Shown: positions 12,593 to 18,706 of the stretch, piece by piece
How the letters are laid out: every line of letters begins with the position of its first letter
Position numbering within the stretch: position 1 is the stretch's first letter
Source of the DNA: Bdellovibrionia bacterium
GTDB lineage: Bacteria; Bdellovibrionota; UBA1018
Assembly: GCA_045805065.1 (NCBI GenBank)
Contig: JBJMMA010000060.1
Coordinates: 15,462-79,461, forward strand
Reading direction: 5' to 3'
Length of the DNA stretch: 64,000 nt
The notes under the pieces: generated by a model
What the model saw: the letters and a program-made list of their open reading frames with translations, nothing else
Databases searched by the model: none
What the model was told of the DNA's origin: nothing
Translations under genes and position numbers: made by a program

Positions 12593-12781
12593 GGCTGCAA
12601 TATAGACAGACCATCTGCACGAAATCCAGAAGCTTCAAAAAATGCGAACCTCGCTGTGCAGAGCTGATGGTTATAAATTTATATAGTTTATAATTCTTGT
12701 GTTCAAGTATCTTTCATGCGCGTTCGAATAATTAAAGCTTACATTCAATGTCGTCGAAGTGAAGAATGGGGGAACGTCTGC

Positions 12782-15232
12782 GTGCTGAGAAAAACAAGAT
12801 TTTTAAATCTATTTTTTAACGCGTGGATTCTAGTTTTCGCTTCTTTCATTTCCTTTCCAGCTTTTTGCGATGTCTCTCATCTAGGGTACGACGAGTATAA
12901 GGCATTGGCTCAGGAACTCGCCCCAAAGGTGAATCTGTTTCGTGACGCTTGGGCGACGGATCCCAATACGGAGTTCTTTGGGGGTACGGTCCGAGACTAT
13001 CTCTACTGGCTTAAAGGGCGTTTTAGAAATGCCTCCAGTTCGGAGGAGGCCCATAAAATCGCTGAGTCCCTTCGTTCTCTACCTATGATTGATATCCGGG
13101 ATTTCGTGATTGGAGAGTCGGATATCGACGCTGTCAGCCGAACCGCATTGCCTCTGGATCCCGCTCGGTACGGGGTTAAGAAGATCGATTTTATCGACAA
13201 AGAGCGTTTCAATCCTTCAACCGAGCTCGGTGCTTCGGAGATCCGGCAAGGATTCATTCCCGTGGAGAAAATCCGCCTTGGGAAAAGCGGGTTTGTTCGT
13301 TGGGATAATTTTGGCGACGGCATTCGAGAGATTTATGTTGGCCGGCCCACGGTTCACATGCCGGATCCCGAGGCATTTAAGACTACGTTTTATGCGCGAA
13401 AGAAGGCCAACCACCCATTACTCCTCGCCATCCGATATCTCAGGACGCTTGGGATTAACTATTTTAACGAGAACGGCTCGGAATATCCCAATTTTTCGAA
13501 GCTGATGAGCATCGATCCAGAGTCTGAGCGGACCGTGAAAGAAGCCATCGCGAGGACGATCAAGACCAGGGATCTGGGCGAGTATTTAAAAAATGGACTT
13601 TTTCAGCAGCGGTTCAATGAAACGACGCAAAAGGCCTTTCGCTCCTATACGAATCCCACAGCGACTCATATGCTCTTTAAAGAATTCGGCATGGATCGAA
13701 TCATTGGTGAGTACTCGGATAAGCTTGATCCTGTGAATCAGTACCTTTTTGCGCGAGCTCCGAAAGATCCTGCGCGGATGAGAGAGCAGCTCCAAGAGCT
13801 CGGAACGACCTCTGAGACCTTGTTTTCAAAGCCATCTCGAGAGTTTTCCGATCTCAACCTCTATCACGGCACTGAAACCGAGGAAGCTTTCCGCGCGATT
13901 CTTTCTCAAGGGATATTGCCATCGACGGCGGGCGCAGCCGGAAAAGGGCTTTATGCCGTCGATCAAACCAATCTCTCTTTCGCGGCTCAATGGGGCAGGA
14001 GTCCCGATCGTGTTGTGCGATTCCAGGTCAGTCCGGATGCGCGGGTCATCGACACTACCGCCGGCGAGGGTGCAAGGCTTTTGGCAAAGTTTCATGGCGA
14101 TTTTGACGCTCTGGCCGATGCAACCGGAGCGGACATTCTGAGGTATCCGTACAGCGTGCGGGCCTATGTCGTAAAAAACAGCGCTGTTCTGGGAAAGCCT
14201 TCAGGCCATCTGCGGGAGTTCCTCAGCTATGGGCGATTATTGGATCGTGCAAAAGAAGCTGACACAATCGATTCGTCTCTAAACGTAATGAAGAATGCGC
14301 AGGTCAGTCATTTCAATCGTGATGAGATATCGCGAATCATTGATGAGATTCCGTATTTCAAAAAGCCAGAAAACGCCAAATTGCTGAGCCTTGCGCGCGG
14401 TTTGGCTTCTCCCGGATTATCGAACGACGTGATGCTATCGAGTTTTCGTAGTGCAATCGCATTAACGGCGTTGGCAAAGGATGCTACCAAACAAGTAGCC
14501 CTGGAAAAGACGATGGACGGAGCAACGACTGCGATCAATGATCTTGTTCGGGTTCTCTCACAGGATCAGCGGCTGACGGACGCGCAAAAGAACGATCTTC
14601 TCAAACGATTGGCGGATGCTGTCTTCGATTCGGCCAATCCCAAGGGAAACCAAGCGGTTCGATCCGCGCTTGTTACACAGATCGTCCGGACGCCCTCTGA
14701 CTTTGGACAAAGAGTGCGGGTGTATCTGAACAACCCCCTTCGCAAGATGGTGGCTGGACTGGGCGCTGGGATGGCAACGACATGGGTGCCGCTTGGTCTT
14801 CTCTATCATGATTCAAGCTTGATTACGCATACGGGAATCGGATTGGGTGCGGTCTGGTCCATGTTGTTTGGCGCAACGCTCAAAGATGCAAACGCGGAAT
14901 ACCGCCAAATTTTTGGAGGTAATGACCGTGAACTCCGGAAAAATCAAGTGCGCGCGATCAAGTCCCTGAAGCAGTATTTTGAGTCGCTGGAGCAAGGAAA
15001 ATCCTTTTCATTGTCGCCTTATCAAACAGTGGGGCAGAGTAAGTTTTCACCTGCGTCAGGGGCAAGTTGCATCTCTCGCAATCTCCGAAAGTTATGGTCG
15101 TATGACCAGAATATCGCCATGCTGGCGTTCGGCGCGGCCGGATACGCGGGTTATCATGGGGTAGATGCATTGATCGAATTTATGTCCCAAAAGGTATCAC
15201 CCAGCCCCGCACCTCAAAAAAAGGCAAATTGA
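12782..15232 (+). CDS. secreted multidomain protein: N-terminal nucleotidyltransferase-like motif (GGTVRD...SDIDAV), central PARP-like ADP-ribosyltransferase domain, C-terminal helical/hydrophobic region
   Basis: Start is set at GTG 12782, which has GGGGGAA 9 nt upstream, rather than the track's 12716. The N-terminus MLRKTRFLNLFFNAWILVFASFISFPAFC is a signal peptide. Residues ~80-135 read FGGTVRDYLYWLKG...IGESDIDAV. Residues ~395-445 read LYHGTETEEAFRAILSQGILPSTAGAAGKGLYAVD, which aligns with the PARP1 H-G-S / ILSQGL / GKGIYFA block. A hydrophobic segment (TWVPLGLLYHDSSLITHTGIGLGAVWSMLFGA) lies near the C-terminus. Confidence 0.7.
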   Translation: MLRKTRFLNLFFNAWILVFASFISFPAFCDVSHLGYDEYKALAQELAPKVNLFRDAWATDPNTEFFGGTVRDYLYWLKGRFRNASSSEEAHKIAESLRSLPMIDIRDFVIGESDIDAVSRTALPLDPARYGVKKIDFIDKERFNPSTELGASEIRQGFIPVEKIRLGKSGFVRWDNFGDGIREIYVGRPTVHMPDPEAFKTTFYARKKANHPLLLAIRYLRTLGINYFNENGSEYPNFSKLMSIDPESERTVKEAIARTIKTRDLGEYLKNGLFQQRFNETTQKAFRSYTNPTATHMLFKEFGMDRIIGEYSDKLDPVNQYLFARAPKDPARMREQLQELGTTSETLFSKPSREFSDLNLYHGTETEEAFRAILSQGILPSTAGAAGKGLYAVDQTNLSFAAQWGRSPDRVVRFQVSPDARVIDTTAGEGARLLAKFHGDFDALADATGADILRYPYSVRAYVVKNSAVLGKPSGHLREFLSYGRLLDRAKEADTIDSSLNVMKNAQVSHFNRDEISRIIDEIPYFKKPENAKLLSLARGLASPGLSNDVMLSSFRSAIALTALAKDATKQVALEKTMDGATTAINDLVRVLSQDQRLTDAQKNDLLKRLADAVFDSANPKGNQAVRSALVTQIVRTPSDFGQRVRVYLNNPLRKMVAGLGAGMATTWVPLGLLYHDSSLITHTGIGLGAVWSMLFGATLKDANAEYRQIFGGNDRELRKNQVRAIKSLKQYFESLEQGKSFSLSPYQTVGQSKFSPASGASCISRNLRKLWSYDQNIAMLAFGAAGYAGYHGVDALIEFMSQKVSPSPAPQKKAN

Positions 15233-15289
15233 AATCGATACGGATCTCAGGCTTTCAAGTTTCTTCCGCAAATTGACGATAAATATGAC

Positions 15290-18101: not shown

Positions 18102-18641
18102 ATGCGAAATATTGTTGGTTTAGTGGTTGTAGGATTGTTGACTTCGGTATCTTTTGCGAGCGCAGCTACTCAAACGGGTCCTGCTGCGGCTCCTACTCTG
18201 ACTCCTGTGCCGTATGGCATTCGATACTTTTGTGAGTTCGAGGGTAGGGGCTTGAGTGAGCACGGCCATCAAGATCGTGATGTTCGCTGTAAGGTAGAGG
18301 GAATTCTGTCCGGCATTACCGTATCGGCTGAATCTGTTGCGACCCCGGTGATCCCAGGTGGTCCAATCGAAATCAAATGCTCCAATGGATACAAGCTTGA
18401 GTCAGAGTACACGGCAATCGCTGCTCAAGGCGGCAATCTTTGGATCAACGCTGAAAGGCATGATAGGCTTGCGACCATTCGGGTCGAGGACTTTTATGGT
18501 CCTGCTGCACAGAACGAAGGCAAGCGATTCAAAGCGGACCTTCTTGCTGCAAATTCCGCTGTGATCCACGGTGAAGGAAAGTGCCGCTTTGAATATCCAT
18601 CGGCTCCAGTTGCACCTCCTGCTCCATCGTTCGCGCAATAA
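18102..18641 (+). CDS. small secreted hypothetical protein (179 aa)
   Basis: A strong SD (AAGGGGGA) lies 8 nt upstream of the ATG. Signal peptide MRNIVGLVVVGLLTSVSFASA. Four Cys residues and a terminator immediately downstream. Confidence 0.6.
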   Translation: MRNIVGLVVVGLLTSVSFASAATQTGPAAAPTLTPVPYGIRYFCEFEGRGLSEHGHQDRDVRCKVEGILSGITVSAESVATPVIPGGPIEIKCSNGYKLESEYTAIAAQGGNLWINAERHDRLATIRVEDFYGPAAQNEGKRFKADLLAANSAVIHGEGKCRFEYPSAPVAPPAPSFAQ

Positions 18642-18670
18642 CGAATAAAACCCGGAAACTTAAACGGGGG

Positions 18671-18706
18671 CATAGCGGGGAATCAGAAATGATTCCCCGT
18701 TTTTTT
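18671..18706. terminator. bidirectional Rho-independent terminator between the 18102 gene and oxyR
   Basis: GGGGAATC-AGAAAT-GATTCCCC is a perfect 8-bp stem followed by TTTTTTTT. oxyR on the opposite strand ends at 18706. Confidence 0.7.

What the first reader, a model, noticed from the sequence alone, without database searches (positions are those of the whole stretch)
12716..18706. Effector-like island: four consecutive signal-peptide proteins, two with eukaryote-type enzymatic domains
Between tsaA (ends 12592) and oxyR lie four same-strand genes that all encode Sec-signal-peptide proteins: the NTase/PARP-like protein (12782-15232), an FCP1/NIF-type HAD phosphatase (15290-16216), a 521-aa protein with a conserved Cys-His block WMGICHGWAPAA (16274-17839), and a 179-aa Cys-containing protein (18102-18641). 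The island ends in a strong terminator. PARP-like and FCP1-like domains are typically eukaryotic. A cluster of exported enzymes of this kind next to stress genes (oxyR-ahpCF) is unusual for housekeeping and resembles a secreted hydrolase/effector arsenal.
Basis: inference. Interest (0 to 1): 0.6.

Follow-up and report, generated by a model that had tools for sequence, protein, structure and literature searches.

The report
Variable slot of exported predator enzymes
Four neighbouring genes of a Bdellovibrio-like bacterium do encode exported enzymes, including an uncharacterised two-enzyme protein, but they are three unrelated units that collected in a fast-changing chromosomal slot, not one imported "eukaryote-type" island.

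Summary
The four same-strand ORFs, their signal-peptide-like N-termini and the terminator are real. The "island" reading is only partly right. Composition and codon usage are ordinary, and there are no tRNA or mobility genes.

In close relatives (flanking core proteins 95-100% identical) only C and D stay together, usually beside oxyR-ahpCF. B moves around them or is absent there. A is absent at this site in all of them.

- **C** is a GP42-type transglutaminase. The "Cys-His block" is its catalytic CH motif. The family is widespread in bacteria.
- **D** is a 4-Cys exported protein found only beside the closest relatives of C.
- **B** is an FCP/SCP (NIF) HAD phosphatase with all four HAD motifs.
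- **A** belongs to a family with no Pfam or NCBIfam match: about 300 clusters, several copies per genome, and every named member is from Bdellovibrionota. It joins a signal peptide, a class-II CCA-adding/poly(A)-polymerase-like nucleotidyltransferase, a PARP/diphtheria-toxin-like ADP-ribosyltransferase domain (His and Tyr kept, Glu replaced by Ala), a variable helical tail and a conserved C-terminal Cys.

My best reading is a hotspot of independently transcribed, fast-evolving exported enzymes of a predator. A is a candidate prey-cytoplasm toxin and C-D a candidate enzyme/partner pair. All functions are inferred.

The parts
12702..12732 (+). Promoter-like block TTCAAG-N18-GAATAAT upstream of A, in the divergent trmO-A spacer
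   Evidence: The same block (TTCAAG-N18-GATAAAT) precedes B at 15254-15284 and precedes B in relative L006. Promoter function is inferred.
12782..15232 (+). Gene A, 816 aa: an exported two-enzyme protein of a family with no Pfam or NCBIfam match
   Evidence: ORF and ribosome-binding site. No Pfam or NCBIfam hit. 80 homologues at 32-51% identity, all named ones from Bdellovibrionota. 303 clusters in 1.84 billion representatives. AF2 model pLDDT 80, high for residues 30-640.
12782..12868 (+). A residues 1-29: signal-peptide-like N-terminus (MLRKTRFLNLFFNAWILVFASFISFPAFC|D)
   Evidence: 66/78 family members have a comparable segment, many with an AxA-type site. Heuristic only.
12869..13816 (+). 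A residues 30-345: class-II CCA-adding / poly(A)-polymerase-like nucleotidyltransferase head and neck. Motifs: G67-G68-T-x-R71-D72, S113-D114-x-D116, D136
   Evidence: AF2 pLDDT 96. The top six Foldseek PDB hits are 3wfo, 3h38, 8cbm and 3aql (prob 0.89-0.96, E 0.02-0.3, about 300 aligned columns). Conserved residues.
13844..14221 (+). A residues 355-480: PARP / diphtheria-toxin-like ADP-ribosyltransferase fold. H362-G-T, S381 and G389-L-Y391 are conserved; the catalytic-Glu position is an invariant Ala461
   Evidence: Foldseek hits to 9biw (E 0.017), tankyrase-2 (prob 0.9) and a RES toxin. The motif aligns to PARP3 but is not significant (E 1-2). Invariant columns.
14747..14803 (+). A residues 656-674: Gly-rich hydrophobic segment in the variable helical C-terminal region
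   Evidence: About 20/78 family members have such a segment. Low pLDDT here.
15068..15070 (+). A Cys763: the family's conserved C-terminal cysteine, C-x-x-[LA]-[FLY]
   Evidence: Conserved in at least 90% of the alignment. 71/78 members have a Cys in the last 30 residues, against a family-wide Cys frequency of 0.27%.
15254..15284 (+). Promoter-like block TTCAAG-N18-GATAAAT ending 5 nt before the B start codon. No ribosome-binding site, so the mRNA may be leaderless
   Evidence: Conserved with the trmO-B spacer of L006.
15290..16216 (+). Gene B, 308 aa: exported NIF (FCP/SCP-type) HAD phosphatase. Signal peptide 1-24; NIF domain residues 36-160; D39-x-D41-x-T, S92-S95, K139 and D156-D157
   Evidence: Pfam NIF E 3.7e-11, 43 bits against a cut-off of 21.8. 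The family profile hits SCP1, TIM50 and FCP1 structures, E 3e-5 to 0.05. Motifs and signal peptides are conserved in 13 homologues.
16274..17839 (+). Gene C, 521 aa: exported GP42-type transglutaminase (TGase_elicitor). Signal peptide 1-19; catalytic C243-H244 at 17000-17005
   Evidence: Pfam PF16683 E 7.7e-37. PDB 3tw5 E 1.9e-26 over residues 138-465. Cys is invariant in 29/29 and His is present in 23/29. The CH motif is the hallmark of GP42 (PMC10318531). The long start is supported by homologues.
17840..18101 (+). Conserved ~262-nt C-D spacer: a short hairpin right after the C stop (17844-17859) and a promoter-like TCGACA-N17-TCTATT (18049-18077) before the D ribosome-binding site
   Evidence: Spacer length of 261-266 nt and the sequence blocks are conserved in five genomes. 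The minus-strand 41-aa ORF is interrupted in L008 and L002, so it is not a gene.
18102..18641 (+). Gene D, 179 aa: exported 4-Cys protein and clade-specific partner of C
   Evidence: No Pfam or NCBIfam hit. It lies immediately downstream of the transglutaminase in all nine loci that have it, and nowhere else. dN/dS 0.12.
18674..18701 (.). Intrinsic terminator between convergent D and the oxyR-like gene
   Evidence: 12-bp stem with 6 GC pairs and a T-run.

Best explanation
The region is a gene-content hotspot between trmO and oxyR in a Bdellovibrionia genome. Three unrelated units encoding Sec-exported enzymes have collected there. It is not one acquired island or operon.

**Unit 1: C and D.** C is a GP42-type Cys-His transglutaminase, a papain-superfamily fold. 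D is its clade-specific small disulfide-containing partner, with its own promoter-like block. I infer that C cross-links or deamidates proteins outside the cytoplasm (prey envelope or predator surface). I infer that D is its cognate binding partner, most likely an inhibitor or self-protection protein and less likely its substrate.

**Unit 2: B.** B is an exported FCP/SCP-type Mg-dependent phosphatase. It needs no cofactor from the cytoplasm.

**Unit 3: A.** A is one copy of a multi-copy family seen so far only in Bdellovibrionota, and it was inserted here in this genome only. After Sec export it carries two nucleotide-using catalytic domains: a CCA-adding/PAP-like nucleotidyltransferase with an intact carboxylate triad, and a PARP/DT-like ART domain of the His-Tyr-X type. 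Their substrates (NTP, NAD+) exist only inside cells. A is therefore most likely a toxin or effector that acts in the prey cytoplasm on RNA ends and/or proteins. Its variable helical or hydrophobic tail and conserved C-terminal Cys would serve targeting or membrane passage.

**Shown here:** gene structure, domain identities, synteny, composition and evolutionary rates.

**Inferred:** secretion, enzymatic activities, targets, the role of D and the use of these proteins in predation.
For: - **Domain identities:**
- **Catalytic motifs conserved:**
- **Signal-peptide-like N-termini across all four families:**
- **Gene order.** Window: trmO | A B C D | oxyR. L006: trmO | B MCP C D | oxyR. L008: HTH-cupin C D B | oxyR. 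L001: HTH-cupin C D | oxyR.
- **Core versus accessory divergence.** Flanking core proteins are 95-100% identical. B, C and D are only 72-85% identical in the two closest relatives, L001 and L006. dN/dS is 0.11-0.14 for B, C and D against 0.02-0.07 for the core genes.
- **A elsewhere.** A-family genes sit alone in unrelated contexts, two per contig in several cases. The family has 303 clusters and the NTase and ART always occur together.
- **A was inserted.** The trmO-B spacer of L006 matches the left part of the window's trmO-A spacer plus the right part of its A-B spacer. The promoter-like block is present at both junctions.
- **D tracks one clade.** D occurs only beside the nearest transglutaminase clade.
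- **B is independent of C.** Distant B homologues are not near a transglutaminase.
- **Native DNA.** Composition is native and there are no tRNA genes.
Against: - No dedicated signal-peptide predictor was run, and there are no expression data or biochemistry.
- The ART assignment rests on weak Foldseek E-values (0.017-0.3) and a non-significant motif alignment. The canonical catalytic Glu is replaced by an invariant Ala, so the domain could be a binder rather than an enzyme.
- The NTase fold hits are also weak (E 0.02-0.3, TM 0.36-0.39), and the Pfam PolyA_pol model does not match.
- No route from the predator's periplasm into the prey cytoplasm is known.
- The predatory lifestyle of this metagenome-assembled genome is inferred from taxonomy only.
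- The C-D spacer of 262 nt is atypically long for an effector-immunity pair.
- The promoter-like blocks are consensus-level inferences.
Confidence: 0.55

Rival explanations
1. The four genes form one horizontally acquired effector island or operon with eukaryote-derived PARP and FCP1 domains. They are co-regulated and perhaps linked to the neighbouring oxidative-stress genes.
For: - Same strand, short A-B and B-C gaps (57 nt each) and a single strong terminator after D.
- The Pfam NIF family is mainly eukaryotic (established knowledge), and B matches it.
- The region varies between relatives.
Against: - GC and codon usage are native.
- There are no tRNA genes, repeats or mobility genes.
- The genes have separate histories and are never found together elsewhere.
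- C-D is syntenic in relatives.
- A, B and D have their own promoter-like blocks.
- A shows no significant sequence similarity to eukaryotic PARPs.
- The transglutaminase family is overwhelmingly bacterial.
- oxyR is convergent and lies behind a terminator.
Confidence: 0.1
2. Self-directed housekeeping. The proteins act on the bacterium's own envelope or surface. The transglutaminase would cross-link its own surface or sheath proteins, with D as a structural substrate. The phosphatase would be periplasmic. A would be a catalytically dead scaffold or a nucleotide-binding protein. None would be aimed at prey.
For: - GP42 is a cell-wall-associated enzyme in Phytophthora (established knowledge).
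- Homologues abound in filamentous or multicellular bacteria such as Thiothrix, cable bacteria and Myxococcota.
- D has Pro/Ala-rich termini, as some transglutaminase substrates do.
- A lacks the ART catalytic Glu.
- B, C and D are under purifying selection.
Against: - The Thiothrix and Electrothrix homologues lack signal peptides, whereas the Bdellovibrionota ones have them, so the location, and probably the role, differs in this phylum.
- The Gln residues in D's tails are not conserved.
- A keeps the full NTase carboxylate triad and the NAD-site His and Tyr under strong conservation across about 300 clusters, which is unexpected for a dead scaffold.
- Copy number and context are highly variable, and B, C and D evolve fast. 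Both fit interaction with other organisms better.
Confidence: 0.2
3. A narrower alternative for C-D. It is an antibacterial effector-immunity pair. C would be a papain-fold amidase or transglutaminase toxin acting on prey envelope proteins or peptidoglycan-linked proteins. D would be a periplasmic immunity protein, expressed separately, that protects the producer. This is analogous to the Bd3459/Bd3460 self-protection pair of B. bacteriovorus (recalled from memory, not checked here).
For: - D is strictly adjacent to C in all nine loci that have it.
- D is small, exported and has 4 conserved Cys.
- D has its own conserved promoter-like block.
- Both proteins evolve fast and at similar rates, dN 0.11 and 0.12.
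- GP42 belongs to the papain-like superfamily, which also holds the Tae amidase effectors (PMC10318531).
Against: - No structural or interaction evidence. A second structure job for D or for a complex was not available.
- Other signal-peptide-bearing transglutaminases of Bdellovibrionota have no D and instead occur as tandem transglutaminase pairs.
- The 262-nt spacer is unusual for effector-immunity pairs.
Confidence: 0.3

Closest known systems
GP42 transglutaminase of Phytophthora sojae (PDB 3TW5; Pfam PF16683 TGase_elicitor)
   Same: C aligns over about 330 residues (E 1.9e-26). It keeps the unusual Cys-His "CH" catalytic motif described for GP42 (PMC10318531). It is also exported.
   Different: C is bacterial and carries an extra N-terminal region of about 130 residues. 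It has a dedicated downstream partner gene, D. The third catalytic residue was not mapped, and no activity or substrate is known for any bacterial member in the literature I could search.
FCP1/SCP1 (NIF) family HAD phosphatases, such as human CTDSP1, and TIM50
   Same: B matches Pfam NIF above its threshold. Its family profile hits SCP1, TIM50 and FCP1 structures. The DLDxT and KDL...D-D motifs align.
   Different: B has a Sec signal peptide and a C-terminal extension of about 150 residues with a conserved Cys. It scores far below the TIGR02251 cut-off (28 against 139 bits). It belongs to a very small bacterial clade (13 hits). Its substrate cannot be the RNA polymerase II C-terminal domain.
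Class II CCA-adding enzymes and bacterial poly(A) polymerase I (PDB 3wfo, 3h38, 8cbm, 3aql)
   Same: The N-terminal domain of A shares the head-and-neck fold (Foldseek prob 0.89-0.96). It also has the GG...DxD...D nucleotidyltransferase signature.
   Different: There is no detectable sequence-profile match to PolyA_pol. A 35-residue insertion separates GG from DxD. There are no body or tail tRNA-binding domains; an ART domain follows instead. The protein is exported.
H-Y-E clade ADP-ribosyltransferases (PARPs/tankyrase; diphtheria-toxin-like toxins such as Chelona toxin 9biw)
   Same: Fold-level hits. The motif "LYHGT...G-x-G-L-Y" aligns with the PARP3 motif "LWHGT...GKGIY".
   Different: The similarity is statistically weak. 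The catalytic Glu position is an invariant Ala, so the triad is His-Tyr-Ala, resembling the H-Y-[I/L/T/V/Y] mono-ART PARPs (recalled from memory). The domain is fused to a nucleotidyltransferase, an architecture I found in no annotated family.
Self-protection and effector-immunity gene pairs of predatory or competing bacteria, such as B. bacteriovorus Bd3459/Bd3460 and T6SS Tae/Tai (from memory)
   Same: An exported envelope-active enzyme gene is followed by a small exported cognate gene, and the two are conserved as a pair.
   Different: There is no evidence that D binds or inhibits C. D is unrelated in sequence to known immunity proteins, with no Pfam or NCBIfam hit. The PADLOC and PHROGs libraries were not searched.

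Membership tests
GP42-type transglutaminase (PF16683) | Profile match above the curated threshold, and homology to the solved GP42 structure | tested here: met
   127.3 bits against a cut-off of 25. 3tw5 E 1.9e-26 over residues 138-465.
GP42-type transglutaminase (PF16683) | Catalytic Cys immediately followed by His (the CH motif) | tested here: met
   C243-H244 in WMGICHGW. Cys is present in 29/29 and His in 23/29 homologues. Motif definition from PMC10318531.
GP42-type transglutaminase (PF16683) | Third catalytic Asp/Asn, and Ca2+-dependent transamidase activity | not tested
   The primary GP42 paper was not available, so residue numbering could not be mapped. Activity needs biochemistry.
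NIF / FCP-SCP HAD phosphatases (PF03031) | Profile match above the Pfam gathering score | tested here: met
   43.4 bits against 21.8, E 3.7e-11. The family profile hits SCP1 at E 3e-5.
NIF / FCP-SCP HAD phosphatases (PF03031) | HAD motifs I-IV: DxDx(T/V), S/T, K, DD | tested here: met
   D39 is nearly invariant and D41 invariant, followed by T43. S92-S95, K139 and D156-D157 are present and conserved in the 13-member alignment.
Dullard-like phosphatase subfamily (TIGR02251) | Score above the curated cut-off | tested here: not met
   28.5 bits against 139.15. B is a NIF-superfamily member but not a member of this eukaryotic subfamily.
Class II nucleotidyltransferases (CCA-adding enzyme / PAP, PF01743) | Sequence-profile match | tested here: not met
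   No Pfam or NCBIfam hit at E <= 0.1. No PDB sequence hit.
Class II nucleotidyltransferases (CCA-adding enzyme / PAP, PF01743) | Pol-beta-type fold with hG[GS], DxD and a third carboxylate; head-and-neck architecture | tested here: met
   The top six Foldseek hits are CCA/A-adding enzymes and PAP I, prob 0.89-0.96 but E only 0.02-0.3. G67, G68, D114, D116 and D136 are invariant or nearly so.
Class II nucleotidyltransferases (CCA-adding enzyme / PAP, PF01743) | Body and tail domains that hold tRNA or RNA | tested here: not met
   The NTase-like region ends at about residue 345 and is followed by the ART domain.
H-Y-E ADP-ribosyltransferases (PARP / diphtheria-toxin clade) | ART fold with NAD-site His and Tyr | tested here: inconclusive
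H-Y-E ADP-ribosyltransferases (PARP / diphtheria-toxin clade) | Catalytic Glu on the strand after the Tyr-containing loop | tested here: not met
   By motif alignment the position is an invariant Ala461 (A-[YF]-V-V-K-N). The preceding residues are not conserved.
Horizontally acquired genomic island | Atypical composition or codon usage | tested here: not met
   A-D GC 0.504-0.537 against a window mean of 0.517 +/- 0.024. Codon-usage distance is within range. Only D's GC3 (0.44) is about 2 SD low.
Horizontally acquired genomic island | tRNA or integrase at a border, flanking direct repeats, and presence or absence as a block | tested here: not met
   No tRNA genes. No long flanking repeats. The genes vary individually, not as a block.
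Effector-immunity / self-protection pair (C-D) | Conserved adjacency of an enzyme gene and a small exported partner gene | tested here: met
   D follows the transglutaminase in nine of nine loci that have D.
Effector-immunity / self-protection pair (C-D) | Physical binding and inhibition of the enzyme by the partner | not testable with these tools

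The most novel reading that the evidence does not exclude
The A family would be a new class of Bdellovibrionota prey-cytoplasm effectors. These are Sec-exported proteins that join a CCA-adding-enzyme-like nucleotidyltransferase to a PARP-like ADP-ribosyltransferase, so as to modify prey RNA ends (for example tRNA 3' or 5' ends) or proteins. Their variable helical or glycine-rich tail, together with the conserved C-terminal Cys-x-x-hydrophobic motif, would act as a targeting or membrane-translocation signal. A similar lone C-terminal Cys is conserved in the unrelated exported phosphatase family B. 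It also appears in the neighbouring signal-peptide-bearing J-domain protein. If real, this would point to a shared delivery code for getting cytoplasm-type enzymes into prey.
Probability: 0.15. Interest if true: 0.8.

Novelty: new variant of a known kind. Interest (0 to 1): 0.5.

Why it matters
How periplasmic predators such as Bdellovibrio kill and take over the prey cytoplasm is still poorly understood. Few prey-cytoplasm effectors, and no delivery signal, are known.

- **A family.** It is exported, multi-copy and so far seen only in this phylum, and it carries two nucleotide-dependent catalytic domains. That makes it a concrete, testable candidate.
- **C-D pair.** It would be an entry point for studying bacterial GP42-type transglutaminases. 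I found no functional study of them in the searchable literature, although thousands of homologues exist.
- **For genome scanning.** A run of signal-peptide genes in a predator genome is not evidence of an island. Synteny with close relatives is what separated the units here.

Tried and rejected
- **ART sequence evidence.** A profile of the ART domain alone against PDB sequences gave only the same short, non-significant PARP3 motif match.
- **Taxonomy of A homologues.** The listing of cluster members returned no organism names for the unnamed homologues.
- **Source contig.** The source contig's own gene calls are not on record. A's own sequence is absent from the protein collection (best hit 51% identity).
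- **Shared C-terminal tag.** A position-weight matrix built from the A-family C-terminal Cys motif did not single out B or the J-domain protein from background ORFs. 22% of ORFs have a Cys in that window. The cross-family "shared tag" idea is therefore only a lead.
- **Small antisense ORF.** A 41-aa ORF on the minus strand of the conserved C-D spacer was rejected because it carries stop codons in L008 and L002.
- **RNA families.** Rfam found nothing in the region. RNAalifold on the spacer gave no net covariation support: 13 of 52 predicted pairs show a compensatory change, but the covariation term is slightly unfavourable (+0.48 kcal/mol).
- **Coupling of B and C.** This was rejected. Distant B homologues are not near a transglutaminase.
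- **A universal neighbour of the transglutaminase.** None was found across 79 loci.
- **Literature.** Searches for Bdellovibrio transglutaminase, ADP-ribosyltransferase, sorting signals and bacterial "transglutaminase elicitor" function found nothing relevant. The primary GP42 structure paper is not held.

Full report
**Source and gene map**

The window has about 52% GC throughout. Proteins B and C are 100% identical to NCBI entries from a metagenome-assembled "Bdellovibrionia bacterium" (locus tags ACJ763_*). A predatory lifestyle is inferred from that taxonomy only.

The region reads as follows:

| Gene | Coordinates | Strand | Notes |
|---|---|---|---|
| rpsA | 8647-10467 | + | |
| J-domain protein | 10670-11785 | + | hydrophobic N-terminus |
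| 96-aa ORF | 11791-12081 | - | |
| trmO/tsaA | 12125-12592 | - | |
| A | 12782-15232 | + | |
| B | 15290-16216 | + | |
| C | 16274-17839 | + | |
| D | 18102-18641 | + | |
| terminator | 18674-18701 | | 12-bp stem |
| OxyR-like LysR regulator | 18706-19650 | - | best NCBIfam hit OxyR, E 2e-67, below the equivalog cut-off; the ORF also allows an upstream TTG start at 19701 |
| ahpC, ahpF, sppA, rsmB | | + | AhpC and AhpF above their equivalog cut-offs, SppA above its domain-model cut-off; rsmB named from Pfam domains in the syntenic relatives |

**Checking the observation**

- A most likely starts at the GTG at 12782. A GGGGG Shine-Dalgarno sequence lies 8 nt upstream, and the closest homologue starts with the same MLRKT.
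- All four N-termini have a basic n-region, a hydrophobic core and a small-residue cleavage site. This feature is shared by their homologues: 66/78 for A, nearly all of 13 for B, the Bdellovibrionota members of C, and all D homologues.
- NCBI's shorter model for C (484 aa) drops the signal peptide. Homologues of 519-529 aa align over the full 521 residues, including a conserved INALLxRF segment upstream of NCBI's start.
- No dedicated signal-peptide predictor was available, so export is well supported but heuristic.
- The run of four is not statistically remarkable. About a third of the roughly 58 ORFs in the window look exported, and a run of seven lies at 54875-59701.

**What each gene is**

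*C: a transglutaminase.*
- C matches Pfam TGase_elicitor (E 7.7e-37). It matches the crystal structure of Phytophthora sojae GP42 transglutaminase, 3TW5 (E 1.9e-26 over residues 138-465).
GP42 is unusual in the papain-like superfamily because the catalytic His directly follows the Cys (PMC10318531).
- In 29 diverse homologues the Cys is invariant and the His is present in 23.
- The family is not typically eukaryotic. More than 2,000 bacterial proteins matched, and 535 genome loci encode relatives. These come from Thiothrix and Leucothrix, cable bacteria, Myxococcota, Bdellovibrionota and Oligoflexia, Zooshikella and others.
- The Thiothrix, Electrothrix and Polyangia proteins lack a signal peptide, whereas the Bdellovibrionota ones have one.

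*B: a phosphatase.*
- B matches Pfam NIF above threshold. A profile of its 13 homologues hits SCP1, TIM50 and FCP1 structures (E 3e-5 to 0.05).
- All four HAD motifs are conserved.
- It falls far below the cut-off of the eukaryotic dullard-like subfamily model. Its clade is tiny.

*D: an exported partner protein.* D has no family match. It has four conserved cysteines and Pro/Ala-rich ends.

*A: a two-enzyme protein of an undescribed family.*
- A has no Pfam, NCBIfam or PDB sequence match.
- It has 80 homologues at 32-51% identity. All named ones are from Bdellovibrionota, apart from one older "Deltaproteobacteria" label. Several come from the same genome or contig.
- An exhaustive profile search found 303 clusters at 50% identity. 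In the 150 best-scoring clusters that were listed, the full-length members match across both N-terminal domains; the shorter listed hits appear to be fragments, and the other 153 clusters were not listed.
- The AlphaFold model is confident for residues 30-640. The N-terminal domain alone reaches pLDDT 96.
- The six best Foldseek matches for the N-terminal domain are class II A-/CCA-adding enzymes and E. coli poly(A) polymerase I. These have prob 0.89-0.96 and about 300 aligned columns, but E is only 0.02-0.3.
- The nucleotidyltransferase signature is invariant or nearly so: G67-G68, D114-x-D116 and D136.
- Residues 355-480 hit a diphtheria-toxin homologue, the tankyrase-2 PARP domain and a RES toxin (E 0.017-0.3, prob about 0.9).
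- The invariant "LYHGT...G-x-G-L-Y" aligns with the NAD-site His and Tyr of PARP3, although not significantly.
- The position of the catalytic Glu is an invariant Ala.
- The C-terminal third is variable in length and sequence. About a quarter of members, including this one (residues 656-674), have a Gly-rich hydrophobic segment there.
- 71/78 members have a lone Cys 5-28 residues from the end (median about 11), followed by hydrophobic residues. The family-wide Cys frequency is 0.27%.

**Is it an island?**

Composition says no. The GC content, GC3 and codon-usage distance of A-D lie within the spread of the window. There are no tRNA genes and no flanking repeats.

Synteny is the decisive evidence. 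Three relatives have flanking core proteins that are 88-100% identical to the window (OxyR 95-97%, AhpC 94-98%, RpsA 99-100%). Their gene orders at this site are:

| Genome | Gene order |
|---|---|
| Window | trmO / A B C D / oxyR |
| L006/L007 | trmO / B, MCP, C, D / oxyR |
| L008/L009 | HTH-cupin, C, D, B / oxyR |
| L001 | HTH-cupin, C, D / oxyR |

- **Only C-D is constant.** It comes with a conserved spacer of about 262 nt. D occurs immediately downstream of the transglutaminase in all nine loci that have it, and nowhere else. These include more distant genomes where oxyR is not nearby (L002, L010-L012).
- **B is independent.** More distant B homologues lie in unrelated contexts without a transglutaminase.
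- **A is a solo gene elsewhere.** A-family genes elsewhere are alone in unrelated neighbourhoods.
- **A was inserted here.** The trmO-B spacer of L006 aligns to the left part of the window's trmO-A spacer and the right part of its A-B spacer. A promoter-like TTCAAG-N18-GA(A)TAA(A)T block sits at both junctions. This fits insertion of A with duplication or retention of that block.
- **D has its own promoter-like block.** It is TCGACA-N17-TCTATT.
- **B, C and D are real genes but evolve fast.** dN/dS is 0.11-0.14 against 0.02-0.07 for flanking core genes. dS is near saturation, so these values are approximate.

The four genes are therefore three units in a hotspot of gene gain, loss and shuffling, inside an otherwise very conserved core.

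**Mechanism**

All of this section is inferred.

- **C and B.** Both use chemistry that works without cytoplasmic cofactors (Ca2+ or Mg2+), so they suit an extracytoplasmic site.
- **D.** Strict pairing, separate promoter-like block and matched evolutionary rate make D most likely a cognate binding partner of C. I favour an inhibitor or self-protection role, by analogy with predator self-protection and effector-immunity pairs. A substrate role is less likely because the Gln residues in its tails are not conserved.
- **A.** It carries two domains whose substrates (NTP, NAD+) exist only inside cells, yet the family is consistently signal-peptide-bearing. The simplest reconciliation is action inside another cell, the prey cytoplasm.
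- **A's possible targets.** The CCA-enzyme-like head and neck, without RNA-holding body or tail domains, is fused to an ART fold. ART relatives include enzymes that modify nucleic-acid ends (from memory). This suggests RNA ends or proteins as targets.
- **A's ART activity.** The missing Glu means the ART may be a mono-ART of the H-Y-X type or only a binder.
- **A's tail.** The tail and the C-terminal Cys may serve targeting or membrane passage. An attempt to show that this Cys motif is a tag shared with B and the J-domain protein failed statistically, although B's family also conserves a near-C-terminal Cys.

**Comparison with known systems and novelty**

- C is a new bacterial member of the GP42 family. 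Its clade-specific partner gene has not been described.
- B is a divergent, exported member of the NIF superfamily.
- A does not meet sequence-profile membership of either PolyA_pol or PARP. It resembles both at the level of fold and motifs, in an architecture that matched no model in Pfam or NCBIfam.
- I found no literature on any of these in Bdellovibrionota.

**Verdict**

The island interpretation is only partly supported. The most interesting element is the A family, followed by the C-D pair. I set interest at 0.5 and novelty at "new variant of a known kind".

Noticed in passing
window 10670-11785 (+): A 371-aa protein has a signal-peptide-like or anchor-like N-terminus ([29 protein letters not shown]) followed immediately by a DnaJ J-domain (Pfam E 1e-24). 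A Ser-rich linker follows. Three to four internal repeats of about 47 aa come next, seen as DNA repeats with a 141-144-nt period at 11234-11679. The protein ends in a C-terminal ...[15 protein letters not shown]. The gene has low GC (0.46). It is absent between rpsA and the 96-aa ORF in relatives L006 and L008, so it is a second lineage-specific insertion next to the locus. An exported J-domain would be odd, but the positive-inside rule could equally place the J-domain in the cytoplasm.
   Followed up: partly
A family (alignment A1); window 15068-15070; B family (alignment A6); window 16150-16216: A lone conserved Cys lies 5-28 residues from the C-terminus (median about 11), followed by hydrophobic or amphipathic residues (C-x-x-[LA]-[FLY]). 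It occurs in 71/78 A-family proteins, although the preceding ~300 residues are unalignable. A similar conserved near-C-terminal Cys occurs in 10/13 B-family proteins. Its function is unknown. A weight matrix built from A did not detect it specifically in other families.
   Followed up: partly
window 17840-18101 and L001, L002, L006, L008: The spacer between the transglutaminase gene and D keeps its length (261-266 nt) and several sequence blocks across genomes whose C proteins are only 57-81% identical. There was no Rfam match, no net covariation support, and the antisense 41-aa ORF is not conserved. It may hold regulatory elements for D.
   Followed up: partly
window 54875-59701 (-/+): A run of seven signal-peptide ORFs. 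It includes four paralogues of about 175 aa (54875-55402, 58052-58573, 58592-59128, 59162-59701) that share MK..S..LLSAQA.GA...KTC and end in ...PCK. It also includes two adjacent DUF4360 proteins (56468-57121, 57210-58031).
   Followed up: partly
window 26112-27086 (+), 50560-51411 (-), 52780-53730 (-): Three apparently paralogous exported proteins share a GGGGD-x-C motif right after the signal peptide. The one paralogue scanned (26112-27086) has no Pfam match.
   Followed up: no
L020, L029, L034, L035, L060, L063, L070 (cable bacteria); L022, L030, L031, L047, L069, L073, L082, L085, L086 (Bdellovibrionota and others): In cable bacteria the transglutaminase homologue has no signal peptide and is followed by a conserved ~349-aa gene whose N-terminus (HHAIVIGINDYPG) looks caspase-like. 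In many other Bdellovibrionota loci the signal-peptide-bearing transglutaminase is followed by a second transglutaminase paralogue instead of D.
   Followed up: no
window 16274-16384: The NCBI gene model for C (484 aa, P0081) starts 37 codons downstream of the likely start and so removes the signal peptide. Homologues support the longer form.
   Followed up: yes
window 10456-10507: Two tandem 26-nt copies (AAGGACGAGTAATCGTC...) lie right after the rpsA stop, each forming a short hairpin. This is probably a duplicated terminator.
   Followed up: no
window 60713-63100 (-): A 795-aa protein with a hydrophobic N-terminus, no Pfam match, and a Cys 9 residues from the C-terminus (...LPADCIPSDLSRL).
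   Followed up: no
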